Notes under the pieces: model-generated
What the model was told of the DNA's origin: nothing
The model's input: only the letters and a program-made list of their open reading frames with translations
Database searches by the model: none
Source: Chloroflexota bacterium
GTDB taxonomy: Bacteria > Chloroflexota > Anaerolineae > VGOG01
Direction of reading: 5' to 3'
Length of the DNA stretch: 33,075 nucleotides
Assembly: GCA_030611885.1 (NCBI GenBank)
Contig: JAUWOY010000036.1
Span: forward strand, 1-33,075
Made by a program: the position numbers and the translations under genes
Shown: piece after piece, positions 12,160-17,856 of the stretch
How positions within the stretch are numbered: the stretch's first letter is position 1
How the letters are laid out: the number at the start of each line of letters is the position of its first letter

Positions 12160-12596
12160 GGTCGCTGTGTGTAAATAGTACATGCGTTCGGTTTGAACAC
12201 TACCCCAAAATCGATATTTAGTCTAAACCCAAGAATTAAATCCCGGCCGTAGAACGTCGTCTGGTGCTCCAACTGGCAGGGGTACCTTAGAAGTGAGATA
12301 CGTTGCTGATGGCATTGGCATACCCACACAGCGCAAGTCGTAGGGCACGACAACTTGTTCAATCTCAACGTCAGCGAACCGATGGGTATTCACTCTACAA
12401 GGCGATCCGTGTTTGCCGTTAGAGGCATAGCGCTGAATTTTACATTTCGCGGGTTATGTATATAATAGAACTGGGACAGCCGGCCACACTGAAGACAGTG
12501 GACGCGAGTGGACACGCTGGTCAATTGGCTGGATCAAAGTTGTAAACGCCTATAGAAAGCACAACCAGTCATAGTTATGGATAGCGGGAGGGTAAA

Positions 12597-13490
12597 ATGC
12601 CAGTTCCACAGCGCGCTCGGATGATAGAATTTGACCAGGGCAGTCATGCATACTTTGCCTTTGTCAGGACGAGCTCCAGTCCAGAAGACATTATATCACA
12701 ACTAAACCTGGATCCGCTTCCAAAGGGAGTCATCTGGATTAGCGGTGGAGCCACAGATTTTCCTCTTGAGATCGTAGAGCCAACAGTTGCATTGATTGAG
12801 GCCGTGATCGTGCCCCTTGTGTACGAACATGATTTGCTGGTTGTTGATGGTGGTACAGAGGCTGGGATCATGAAGATTATTGGCGAGGTATTTGAAAGAG
12901 CTAAGTACCACAAGCTGAACATCATCGGTTATGAGGAAGACAAGCTCCAGGGACAGAACGCTAGATCCTGGGATCCCTTGCTGATGGGTTTTGTGCCTGA
13001 ACCGAAGGTCTCCTATCCCGGAGTTGATCGTTCGCCGCCGGACTATGCTCCGCTTGATCCCAACCATATCTACTTTGTCATGGTGCTCGATGCAAAAGAG
13101 TGGGGTCAGGAAGTTGAGTGTATGTTCTCGTTTCTGGGTTATTTGGCTACCCAGAGACAAATCCCAACCATTAACATTGTCGCTAATGGAGGGCGAGTCA
13201 CAATCAAAGAGGCCTATCATGCGGCACAACAAGGGCGACATGTAGTCGTTCTGGAAGGTAGCAAGAGAGCAGCCGAAGTCATTGTCGCTGCGCTAGATGG
13301 AGTATCTGACAGAACCTTGGTCAGTTTGCTCAGAGCATACGGGATTACAACACAGAGGCACGAGGTAGAAGAGACGGTTTACTGGCTCAATAGCATTGCC
13401 AAGTACGACAAGATTACGCGTTTTGATTTCTTATCACGGCCACCTGGGGAGTTGAGAGAAATCATTCTCTCTAAGATGGGCCTAGTGTGA
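12597..13490 (+). CDS. Standalone SLOG/LOG-like Rossmann-fold nucleotide-binding protein, 297 aa
   Basis: The motifs ISGGATDF, LLVVDGGTEAGIMKIIGE and IVANGGRVTIKEAY follow the LOG/SLOG pattern (GGxxG...GGxG...PGGxGTxxE). Assignment by motif memory, not by search. RBS GGGAGGG 4-5 nt upstream. Overlaps the next gene by 4 nt. Confidence 0.5.
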   Translation: MPVPQRARMIEFDQGSHAYFAFVRTSSSPEDIISQLNLDPLPKGVIWISGGATDFPLEIVEPTVALIEAVIVPLVYEHDLLVVDGGTEAGIMKIIGEVFERAKYHKLNIIGYEEDKLQGQNARSWDPLLMGFVPEPKVSYPGVDRSPPDYAPLDPNHIYFVMVLDAKEWGQEVECMFSFLGYLATQRQIPTINIVANGGRVTIKEAYHAAQQGRHVVVLEGSKRAAEVIVAALDGVSDRTLVSLLRAYGITTQRHEVEETVYWLNSIAKYDKITRFDFLSRPPGELREIILSKMGLV

Positions 13491-16402
13491 TTAAGACGGA
13501 CCGCGAGCACGGGAGGACACCAGATATGAATTCAGATGCATCAGATACGCCCAGAACACTTTTAGCATATTTTAGTCACAGCTACCGTCCCAGCGAGAAG
13601 GAGATTAATCTATTCTTCTGGGAATTGTTAAGCAAGCACAGCCTCTACTTCACAGTCGACTCCGAAGAGAATAGAGATAAGCCGATGGACATCTCCTACC
13701 TGGAGTGGATGATGCGACGCTGCGCATGTTTTGTAGCCGTCATTCCGCGCCGCGATGACTCACCGCCATATAACTGTTCTCCCTACCAGGTCTTTGAAAA
13801 CAGTCTGGCCATTCGCGCTAAGAAACCACGTTTGATCTTTGTCGAAGAAGGATTAGACGAAACCATCTTCGGCGTTCAACCTGAAGAAGTCTGTTCCTTT
13901 CGTCGAAGAAGAGAATTCCTTGAGGAAGGCAAAGACGATTTCATGAAGTTTGCGAGTCGGCTAGCTCAACGAGCGCATGCGCTTGCCACTCCAGATTTGG
14001 GCCTAAGGAAGCCAGTTACTCTGTTAGCAGACACCACACAAGGGTCGGCCTACCGTTCGGCTACAGTCAGAAGCATTCGCCAGATAGTGCGTGACCAAGG
14101 GTATTGGTTCCGAACTGTGAACCCCACAGACTTTGAACAGGATTCTTTGTTTCTGCGAACGATTGAAGGTTACAGTATATTGATCTCTGAAGTGCGGCAA
14201 CCTTACTTAGCGCCTGATGTGTTGGGGTTAGTGCATAGCCGATGCGTGCCCACAATTCGCATTTGCCATCTGGAAGAACATGAGAGCGTGGAAGAGGCAC
14301 AGGCAGCGATGCACTTACCGTTCAATGAGCACAAGTGGACTGATCAAGACCGCAGCAGCTGGCCGCTCATATTCAGCAAGTACCAGATTGACGATGATAT
14401 GGAACCAGTCATCTTTTGGAAACAGCCAGAGGAAATGCACGAGAAGGTCAGAGTGCGTTTAAGGAAAATCACCGAAAAACGTGTTGACCTGATCACAGAG
14501 CAAGAAGCACGCGGCTATTTCCTGCGCATAGGCCGCCTATCTGGCCAGATGTTCATCAGCAATGCCAAAGCGCAGAACGACTTCGTTGACAGGCTCAAGC
14601 ACAGCCTGCAGCGAAATGCAGTGGACTGGTTCCATTACAAAGATAAGGACGCAATCCCTATTGGATCGAGCGATTGGCTTTCCGAAATCATTATGGAGAT
14701 CCGGAACTCCACCATTTTTGTCGCCCTAGTTGACTCCAACTACACAGCAAGCGAGTGGTGCATAAGTGAGTTTAGAGAGGCAATGAATTTGTTTCGCAAT
14801 GGTGGCGAGATAGAGATTCATGCCTATGTGCTTGAGGATGGTGCCCAGTTGCCCGCAGAGTTGTCCATGATGCAGGTAGCCTATATCGAGACCTTGAACG
14901 ATACCAGTAGGATTGAGCGGATTGTGGAGAATGCAGTGGCGTTTCTGGAGACTGGAAAACAGGTCCGTTTGCGTCCCAGAGCCCGGACTCAGCTCGTGAA
15001 CTTATTGGCGAAGCTTCCATCGTTTGCTTCGTCCAATGAGCGTAGAACGCTTCTGCAGGACGCTGGATTACCGGCTCGAGTCCTCCAGAAAGTTCGAACA
15101 GAGGCGCAAACGAGTGCGAAAGCGGCTGCTGAGATTGTTGATGACCTAGCAGGATGGGAGCAAGAGCTCAAACTACGAACAAAAGCTCTTGGACTGCTTC
15201 TGTCACGCACAATGGGACTCGTAGATTCAATCGAGGAACAGATATTCTTGGCAGGCATGATCCGAGGCTATAGGCTCATGCCGGACATCAAGCTGCAGCT
15301 TGAAGCCCGTTCGCCTTTACGGGAGCTTGGCTTGGCCTACTTCCACGAGCGGAAGGAGTTAGGAACCTTCGAATCAATTCAAAAGGGATCTCTCGTGGAC
15401 CGCAAGCTGGATCAGCATGAACTCGATGCCAATTTGTATGCTCTATCAGTAAGATCCAGTGCCGAGCAAGACGATTGGCACAAGATGTTACGAATCATTG
15501 GGAAGGGCTTGTTTCACAACAATATCTTTGACGACCTCCTTGAGAATTATAAGAGAGCGTTGGACTCTCTCGGGATTCGCAACGAACAACTTGGGTTCTG
15601 CTTTGCCACTGATGCACCAGGACTGCGCATTCCATTTGAGTGGGCGGTTATTGAAGGTCAGAGGACTCCGTTGTGCTTAAGGCACCCTGTGCGGCGCTTC
15701 TTGGATGGATGTCCTGAACCCAGACCTACGTTACGCACACTGCTTGAAGGAGAAGTTGCCATTCCATTACGCGTGTTGTTGGTAGCCTCCAATACAGGTG
15801 GAATTCCAGAAGTGGAGAATGAAGTTGAAGAGCTCTACTCGATGCTTCGCGACTTGTTTCATCGGGTAGGATGGCCAGAATCCAACATTTGCAGACTGAA
15901 CTCTCAGACAGCCACGGTAGATAGTATTAAATGGCAAATCAGGCATGGGCATTATCATATTCTTCACTTTGCAGGCCACGGGGGCTATGATGATGAAAAG
16001 CCAGTTCTCCAAGTTTATCAAGATGCAAGTACGCAACAGATTGATCAGATCTCTGCAACCATGTTGAGAAGCTGGATCATTGATTCAGACCTCTGCTTCG
16101 TTTACTTGAGCAGTTGTCGCAGTGCATCCACAGAAGCCCTAGAATTAGCTAGTGCAATTCGATACTTTGAGAACGTTGGTCAAGCAATCGTTGAGGCCCG
16201 TGTACCTGAAGTAATCGGTTTTTTCTGGCCGATTGAAGACAATCAAAGCAGGATTCTGGCTACACGATTCTACGAGCAATTCCTGAAAAGCTTTGATGCA
16301 CCTCTGGCCCTATATCACGCGAGGAAGTCTTTTGAAGAAGAAAACCGCATCTGGGCAGCTCCAGTTTTGATTCAACAACTCGACACCCAAAAGAGAAGCT
16401 AG
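13487..16402 (+). CDS. Multidomain TIR(-like) / TIR / helical linker / CHAT caspase-like protease fusion protein, 971 aa
   Basis: Residues about 355-470 (MFISNAKAQNDFVDRLKHSLQRNAVDWFHYKDKD...SEIIMEIRNSTIFVALVDSNYTASEWCISEFREAM) form a canonical TIR domain, including the S-x-WC-x-x-E catalytic-glutamate region. Residues about 25-140 (LLAYFSHSYRP...CACFVAVIPRRDDSPPYNCSPYQVFENSLA) look like a second, more divergent TIR-like domain. The C-terminal about 240 aa have the CHAT His/Cys dyad context (YHILHFAGHGGYDDE ... DLCFVYLSSCRSAS). Confidence 0.7.
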   Translation: MIKTDREHGRTPDMNSDASDTPRTLLAYFSHSYRPSEKEINLFFWELLSKHSLYFTVDSEENRDKPMDISYLEWMMRRCACFVAVIPRRDDSPPYNCSPYQVFENSLAIRAKKPRLIFVEEGLDETIFGVQPEEVCSFRRRREFLEEGKDDFMKFASRLAQRAHALATPDLGLRKPVTLLADTTQGSAYRSATVRSIRQIVRDQGYWFRTVNPTDFEQDSLFLRTIEGYSILISEVRQPYLAPDVLGLVHSRCVPTIRICHLEEHESVEEAQAAMHLPFNEHKWTDQDRSSWPLIFSKYQIDDDMEPVIFWKQPEEMHEKVRVRLRKITEKRVDLITEQEARGYFLRIGRLSGQMFISNAKAQNDFVDRLKHSLQRNAVDWFHYKDKDAIPIGSSDWLSEIIMEIRNSTIFVALVDSNYTASEWCISEFREAMNLFRNGGEIEIHAYVLEDGAQLPAELSMMQVAYIETLNDTSRIERIVENAVAFLETGKQVRLRPRARTQLVNLLAKLPSFASSNERRTLLQDAGLPARVLQKVRTEAQTSAKAAAEIVDDLAGWEQELKLRTKALGLLLSRTMGLVDSIEEQIFLAGMIRGYRLMPDIKLQLEARSPLRELGLAYFHERKELGTFESIQKGSLVDRKLDQHELDANLYALSVRSSAEQDDWHKMLRIIGKGLFHNNIFDDLLENYKRALDSLGIRNEQLGFCFATDAPGLRIPFEWAVIEGQRTPLCLRHPVRRFLDGCPEPRPTLRTLLEGEVAIPLRVLLVASNTGGIPEVENEVEELYSMLRDLFHRVGWPESNICRLNSQTATVDSIKWQIRHGHYHILHFAGHGGYDDEKPVLQVYQDASTQQIDQISATMLRSWIIDSDLCFVYLSSCRSASTEALELASAIRYFENVGQAIVEARVPEVIGFFWPIEDNQSRILATRFYEQFLKSFDAPLALYHARKSFEEENRIWAAPVLIQQLDTQKRS

Positions 16403-16498
16403 GAAGCAAAGAAGATGCTTTGAGAAAGGTTGAGAAACCCGTCCCGCTTCTGAAACTACTTTGTAATGCTTAGGACGAGTTAGCCCGGGAGGTCAACA

Positions 16499-17791
16499 AT
16501 GAAAAAACTAATCGCCCTTGGTGCCTTAGTTCTTGTAATCCTCTCTTACTTCCTGTTTGGGCTCACAGGGTTTGCAATTGGGGCGGCTATTATAGCCGTT
16601 GCTATTCTCTCCTATCGCCTCGCCCGTGAGCCAGGCTTGGCCCGTGCCATACTTCTTGTTACCCTTATCCTTTCATTTGTGATTGGCGGTTTTGTGATCA
16701 GAACTTGGGGACCAAAGCCGACTGGAATCACTAAAGCTGAGGAGATCGCCTTCTTCGTTATCGGAGGGGCGATGGGGCTTATATCCTGGCTATCGGTGCT
16801 CCTTTCTGCATTCTTCTTATGCTCCGAGATAATTCTTGTTTCTCATGGAGGTGATAGGTGGGGATCTTTTGCCTACCTGGTAAGTTCCTTGTTGCTTGAG
16901 CGTGCGGGGGCTCTTGAGATCGTAGATAGAGGTGAAGTGATAACCATAAAATCGAGAGGCTTGCTCGCTCCCTTTAAAGCGATCGGATACGTGATTATCT
17001 ATCATGGAAATGCTGTTGTCTTTGAACGCTTCGGTCGCCTCAGCCAAGTGGCGGGGCCCGGTCTTGTGGTGAAGAGGTCTTTCGAAACGATACGAGCGGT
17101 CGTTGATTTGAGCATGCAAGTGGAGGAAAGAAGGCAAACACTTGTTACCAGAGATGGAATCCCATTGACCACCTATGTAAAAATACTCTTCCAAATAGAT
17201 TCTGGGGGGCGTGCCCCTACGCCTGATGACATGTTTCCACTTTCCGAACCAGCAGTGCTCAATGCAGTATACCTTGTGCCGGATTGGAAGGCATATACCG
17301 TTGAAACGGCCCTTGCCTTGCTCCGCGATATGATATGCACACATTATCTCGACGACGTCTACGCCCCCTTGAAGAAGGGTTCTCGTAAAAGGGCAGGCCT
17401 AGGAACCCATGCACAACTCCTCCAAGATAACCTGCAAACTTCCTTGAGTGCCACAGCGATCGCGTGGGGGGTGAGAATTCACCGGGTGGAACTTGGCATC
17501 GCGGCGCCGCAGGAAATCGAGGAACAAGCCCTGGCCTTCGAAAAGGCGAGAAAAGAGGAGGAACTCGAATACCAAAGATCCAGAGCTGAGAACCGCCGGA
17601 TTAAGCAATTTGTCTCGCAGACTGGAGGAGATGTCACTGATTATGCTCTCCTCCGCTATCTTGAAAGGATTGGGGAATCCGGCATCCTTCCGCCCTCATT
17701 AGACCGGATGCTCCTTGACGCCATGGAAAAGGGAATGTCACGGCCACAGGGGCAAAAGAAGATCAAGGCCAGTGAGGAGGAGGCGGATTGA
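16499..17791 (+). CDS. Membrane protein with N-terminal 4-TM region and SPFH/band-7 (stomatin/flotillin/HflK-like) domain plus C-terminal coiled-coil, 430 aa
   Basis: Four hydrophobic helices in the first about 120 aa. The SPFH core is IVDRGEVITIKSRG...AVVFERFGRLSQVAGPGLVVKRSFETIRAVVDLSMQVEERRQTLVTRDGIPLTTYVKILFQI. Charged helical tail. RBS GGGAGG before the ATG. Confidence 0.6.
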   Translation: MKKLIALGALVLVILSYFLFGLTGFAIGAAIIAVAILSYRLAREPGLARAILLVTLILSFVIGGFVIRTWGPKPTGITKAEEIAFFVIGGAMGLISWLSVLLSAFFLCSEIILVSHGGDRWGSFAYLVSSLLLERAGALEIVDRGEVITIKSRGLLAPFKAIGYVIIYHGNAVVFERFGRLSQVAGPGLVVKRSFETIRAVVDLSMQVEERRQTLVTRDGIPLTTYVKILFQIDSGGRAPTPDDMFPLSEPAVLNAVYLVPDWKAYTVETALALLRDMICTHYLDDVYAPLKKGSRKRAGLGTHAQLLQDNLQTSLSATAIAWGVRIHRVELGIAAPQEIEEQALAFEKARKEEELEYQRSRAENRRIKQFVSQTGGDVTDYALLRYLERIGESGILPPSLDRMLLDAMEKGMSRPQGQKKIKASEEEAD

Positions 17792-17824
17792 CTATCGCTT
17801 CCTCAATATAAGGAAAAGCATGAA

Positions 17825-17856
17825 GCCCCTGTCGCCTCGACAGGGGCTTGCCTTTT
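17825..17856 (+). terminator. Rho-independent terminator after the SPFH gene
   Basis: Perfect 10-bp stem gcccctgtcg / cgacaggggc (loop cctc) followed by ttgccttttg. Confidence 0.65.

What the first reader, a model, noticed from the sequence alone, without database searches (positions are those of the whole stretch)
12160..17850. Low-GC island encoding a candidate Thoeris-like conflict module: SLOG sensor-like protein + TIR/TIR-CHAT protease + membrane SPFH protein
A roughly 5.6 kb stretch with clearly lower GC than its flanks contains three co-oriented genes. TIR domains make nucleotide signals (cADPR isomers) in Thoeris and related systems, and SLOG domains are the known receptors for such signals (ThsA). 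Finding a standalone SLOG-like protein directly upstream of, and 4 nt overlapping with, a TIR-containing protein that ends in a caspase-like CHAT protease suggests a signalling-plus-proteolytic-effector defence or abortive-infection module. Its composition differs from canonical Thoeris (no SIR2 or Macro effector). The neighbouring membrane SPFH protein could be an effector, scaffold or target. I do not recognise this exact three-gene combination as a named system.
Basis: partly seen in the sequence, partly recalled or inferred. Interest (0 to 1): 0.85.

Follow-up and report, generated by a model that had tools for sequence, protein, structure and literature searches.

The report
TRPM-type SLOG plus triple-TIR–CHAT protease pair

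Summary
Three co-oriented ORFs lie in a low-GC stretch, and profile searches confirm SLOG (LSDAT_prok), TIR, EAD8, CHAT and Band_7.

The module has two genes, not three. An LSDAT gene sits directly upstream of the TIR-protease gene in all 11 independent lineages that have upstream sequence. One homologue fuses TIR and LSDAT.

The SPFH gene is resident. Four related Anaerolineae genomes carry it (70–82% identical) with the same downstream backbone but without A or B. DNA homology with them starts 7 nt after B's stop codon, and the gene is low-GC in all of them.

It has two extra N-terminal TIR/deoxyribosyltransferase-fold domains, a canonical TIR (invariant Glu428), EAD8 and CHAT (His831/Cys877).

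A is a complete free-standing homologue of the TRPM2 ADPR-binding MHR1/2 domain (TM up to 0.81). Two of the three named ADPR contacts are invariant.

Sister systems replace LSDAT with small RyR-domain proteins, a fold recently shown to bind or cleave cADPR isomers.

Most likely this is a Thoeris-like defence pair with unusual wiring: the effector is fused to the TIR protein and the SLOG protein stands alone. It is unnamed and untested, and the mechanism is inferred.

The parts
12439..12466 (+). Sigma-70-like promoter candidate (TTTACA-16-TATAAT, 11 of 12 matches) about 130 nt upstream of gene A, inside the 437-nt AT-rich intergenic region 12160-12596
   Evidence: This is a consensus match only; 8 sites were found in the region against 5.1 expected by chance. 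Sequence read.
12597..13490 (+). Gene A: free-standing LSDAT/SLOG protein (297 aa), a full-length homologue of the MHR1/2 ADPR-binding module of TRPM channels. Strong SD (GGGAGGG) upstream. Invariant pocket motifs: S49-GGA, D84-GGTxxG90, H157, W169-GxEV, N197-GGRxTxxE205, G221-SxR224-A
   Evidence: Pfam LSDAT_prok 1.2e-30. PDB sequence search hits only TRPM channels, 1.4e-15 for the single sequence and 9e-23 for the family profile. AF2 model pLDDT 88.8. In Foldseek all top 50 hits are TRPM, TM 0.71-0.81. Conservation.
13526..16402 (+). Gene B: 958-aa protein (971 aa if the GTG at 13487 is used) with the order NT1 - NT2 - TIR - EAD8 - CHAT
   Evidence: Fifteen full-length homologues at 58-67% identity share this architecture.
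13559..13984 (+). B domain NT1 (aa 25-166): TIR-like alpha/beta domain with invariant H31-S32-Y33, E73, R89, S98 and E104. E104 (13796-13798) aligns with the catalytic Glu of the canonical TIR
14015..14536 (+). B domain NT2 (aa 177-350): second flavodoxin-like alpha/beta domain. It always accompanies NT1 in the core family and has no conserved acidic catalytic candidate
   Evidence: No profile similarity to TIR.
14540..14926 (+). B canonical TIR domain (aa 352-480). Catalytic Glu428 lies at 14768-14770 in the motif S422-x-x-C425-x-x-E428
   Evidence: Pfam TIR_2 2.1e-13 and TIR 1.4e-6. S422, C425 and E428 are invariant in 20 sequences.
14981..15253 (+). B EAD8 adaptor domain (aa 499-589). It is absent from the 37-45%-identity TIR-CHAT homologues. 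In sister systems it sits at the N-terminus of a separate trypsin-like protease
   Evidence: Pfam EAD8 32.8 bits against a cut-off of 27. Alignment gap in P0019, P0020 and P0023. EAD8-Trypsin_2 neighbours.
15785..16372 (+). B CHAT caspase-like protease domain (Pfam aa 767-962; the conserved region starts near aa 655). His831 at 15977-15979 and Cys877 at 16115-16117
   Evidence: Pfam CHAT 4.4e-16. H827 and H831 are invariant; C877 is present in at least 90% of homologues. Coordinates checked.
16410..16498 (+). Right-hand boundary of the variable segment: from here on the window is 82-96% identical at DNA level to Anaerolineae genomes that lack A and B
   Evidence: blastn against L067, L069 and L071.
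16499..17791 (+). Gene C: multi-TM SPFH/Band_7 protein. It is a neighbour but a resident backbone gene, NOT part of the acquired pair. It has its own SD (GGGAGG) and is followed by a 12-bp-stem hairpin at 17823-17849

Best explanation
Genes A and B form a two-gene TIR-based conflict module, most probably an abortive-infection anti-phage system. It sits in a variable, defence-gene-rich spot of an Anaerolineae (Chloroflexota) chromosome, directly upstream of a resident SPFH gene.

B is both the NAD+-processing component and the executioner. Its three tandem TIR-fold domains include two that carry the conserved catalytic-position Glu (E104 and E428). These would convert NAD+ into ADP-ribose or a cyclic ADPR isomer when triggered. 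Its C-terminal CHAT protease (H831/C877) would then cleave cellular or phage proteins.

A is a complete free-standing copy of the SLOG/MHR1-2 module that binds ADPR in TRPM2. It would bind the TIR product and so control B. The reading I favour is that ligand-bound A associates with B, or clusters it, and licenses the protease.

EAD8 is a leftover or homotypic adaptor. In split versions of the system it tethers a separate protease to the TIR module.

Shown here: the domain identities, the conserved catalytic and pocket residues, the strict A-B linkage, the modular swapping of effectors and partners, and the exclusion of C.

Inferred, not shown: NAD+ turnover, the identity of the ligand, the direction of regulation, the protease targets and the anti-phage role.
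For: (1) Linkage.
- LSDAT is immediately upstream on the same strand in all 11 dereplicated lineages where the B homologue carries CHAT or caspase and upstream sequence exists.
- It was the only recurrent neighbour in an unbiased clustering of flanking ORFs.
- The LSDAT subfamily has only 24 clusters, most on the same contigs as B homologues.
- P0026 is a TIR-LSDAT fusion protein.

(2) A is an ADPR-type binder.
- Sequence and fold match only the TRPM MHR1/2 domain.
- Human TRPM2 ADPR contacts Y295 and R358 (PMC6759353) align with the invariant W169 and R224. The Gly-rich loops are invariant.
- Elsewhere LSDAT_prok is the N-terminal domain of a SLATT pore effector, the classic sensor-effector layout.

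(3) B is catalytically intact.
- E428 and H831 are invariant, and C877 is present in 19 of 20 homologues.
- The NT1/NT2 region has a TIR/NDT fold, and E104 aligns in register with E428.

(4) Modularity typical of immune systems.
- The same NT1-NT2-TIR module is fused to CHAT, caspase, PNP, STAND ATPase or DUF4062, or paired with EAD8-trypsin.

(5) The partner slot is alternatively filled by small RyR-domain proteins. That fold has been shown experimentally to bind or cleave 2'/3'cADPR (PMC13232231).

(6) Defence context.
- Homologous pairs sit next to SLATT+ThsB and an MmeI-type RM system.
- Others sit next to tyrosine recombinases and another TIR protein, or a DDE transposase.
- The same chromosomal spot in sister genomes holds a SIR2 (ThsA/Dsr-like) protein with a TPR protein, or TCAD9/nSTAND genes.
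Against: - There is no experimental evidence for any step.
- The wiring is atypical. In characterised Thoeris types the signal-binding domain is fused to the effector and the TIR protein is separate. Here the effector is fused to the TIR protein and the SLOG protein has no output domain, so a diffusible-signal relay is not obviously needed.
- PADLOC gave only marginal TIR hits.
- R302, one of the three named TRPM2 ADPR contacts, has no counterpart in A.
- The window itself carries no integrase, tRNA or flanking repeats that would mark the pair as mobile.
- No phage or plasmid copies were found.
- All carriers are uncultured MAGs or metagenome contigs.
Confidence: 0.55

Rival explanations
1. 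The same two-gene module, but A is a brake rather than a relay. It would sequester or hydrolyse the ADPR-type product of B's TIR domains, setting an activation threshold or resetting the system. B would be activated in cis, by oligomerisation, once the buffer is overwhelmed.
For: - B already contains both generator and effector, so a separate receptor is not strictly required.
- The alternative partner fold, RyR, includes enzymes that degrade 2'/3'cADPR as well as sponges (PMC13232231).
- A's family keeps an invariant Glu205 in a GGxxTxxE motif where TRPM channels have Thr. From my own knowledge, unverified here, this resembles the PGGxGTxxE motif of LOG N-glycosidases.
- A has no output domain.
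Against: - LSDAT in TRPM2, and SLOG in ThsA, are receptors and not enzymes.
- LSDAT fused to SLATT and to the TIR module itself looks like a sensor arrangement.
- A conserved Glu is also compatible with ribose-diol binding alone.
Confidence: 0.25
2. One reading: a three-gene module in which the SPFH membrane protein C is an effector, scaffold or target of the SLOG + TIR-CHAT pair.
For: - C lies 96 nt downstream on the same strand, with no strong terminator in between.
- SPFH genes lie near the pair in 3 of 11 lineages: the window, Ca. Aquidulcis (18 nt downstream) and L073 (1.1 kb upstream). That is more often than I would expect for a family with a few copies per genome; this is my rough estimate, not a computed statistic.
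Against: - C homologues at 70-82% identity occur in four genomes with identical downstream synteny and no A or B.
- DNA homology starts just after B's stop codon.
- C is conserved more tightly (up to 87%) than A or B (at most 61-67%).
- C is low-GC even without A and B.
- None of the 43 C-family clusters shares a contig with a B homologue apart from the window.
- The three SPFH proteins are not orthologous to each other: 27% identity in one pair and no BLASTP similarity in the others.
- 8 of 11 lineages lack an SPFH neighbour.
Confidence: 0.08
3. B's TIR domains are only NAD+-depleting effectors or oligomerisation scaffolds. A is the primary sensor of a nucleotide made by a different system, or by the phage. 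On this reading A+B is a sensor plus a dual NADase/protease effector, not a signal-generating system.
For: - In L012/L013 the pair directly follows a SLATT + ThsB-type TIR pair on the same strand. That pair could supply a cADPR-type signal (type VII Thoeris uses cADPR).
- The same TIR module sits at the N-terminus of STAND ATPases, the usual position of effectors.
Against: - Ten of the eleven lineages, including the window, have no separate TIR or cyclase gene adjacent. L074 has another TIR gene, but 2.8 kb away.
- The TIR module also pairs with SLATT in a Thoeris-like generator position (L035/L037).
Confidence: 0.08
4. Not immunity: a regulated-proteolysis or cell-death signalling module used in the physiology or development of filamentous Chloroflexota.
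For: EAD-type adaptors and CHAT/TIR effectors were described as enriched in multicellular bacteria (Kaur et al. 2020, PMC7159879). All close homologues come from environmental Chloroflexota-like MAGs.
Against: - The distribution is patchy and rare: 275 of 1.84 billion representatives match.
- The composition is atypical.
- The pair occupies a variable locus that holds other defence genes in sister genomes.
- Homologues are associated with RM, Thoeris-like genes and recombinases.
Confidence: 0.04

Closest known systems
Type I Thoeris (ThsB TIR + ThsA SIR2-SLOG)
   Same: A TIR enzyme is paired with a SLOG-superfamily nucleotide-binding domain. ThsA's SLOG binds a TIR-made cADPR isomer and is structurally comparable to the TRPM2 SLOG pocket.
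   Different: The SLOG here belongs to the LSDAT (TRPM) family, not the ThsA/STALD family, and no PADLOC ThsA model hit A. It is a free-standing protein with no SIR2 or other effector. The effector (CHAT) is fused to the TIR protein instead. The TIR protein has three TIR-fold domains.
Type IV Thoeris (ThsB TIR + caspase-like protease ThsE, signal N7-cADPR)
   Same: It combines TIR chemistry with a clan-CD caspase-like protease as executioner. One sister locus even carries Peptidase_C14 in place of CHAT.
   Different: In type IV the TIR and the protease are separate proteins, and the protease carries its own C-terminal sensor domain of unknown fold. Here they are a single polypeptide and the candidate sensor is a separate SLOG protein. 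No sequence-level match to Thoeris models was found.
TRPM2 MHR1/2 (LSDAT_euk) ADPR-binding domain
   Same: Closest solved structures to A: TM 0.71-0.81, sequence E-value down to 1e-15 and profile E-value 9e-23. ADPR-clamping Y295 aligns with W169 and the phosphate-binding R358 with R224. The Gly-rich loops are conserved.
   Different: A is a soluble 297-aa protein with no channel. TRPM2's R302 has no counterpart. A keeps a Glu (E205) where TRPM channels have Thr.
EAD-adaptor conflict systems (Kaur, Burroughs, Iyer, Aravind 2020)
   Same: B contains EAD8, one of the adaptor domains predicted to recruit effectors by homotypic interaction. Sister loci show the predicted split arrangement, with EAD8-trypsin next to the TIR module.
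   Different: The window has no STAND, MoxR-vWA or GTPase core and no second EAD8 copy. Here EAD8 is internal, between the TIR and a fused protease.
RyR-domain cADPR-binding and cADPR-cleaving proteins (phage RyDEP)
   Same: Small RyR-domain proteins occupy the same partner position next to the NT1-NT2-TIR module in sister systems. The fold binds or cleaves 2'/3'cADPR.
   Different: RyDEP is a phage counter-defence protein, whereas the proteins seen here are host-encoded partners. The window itself has LSDAT, not RyR.

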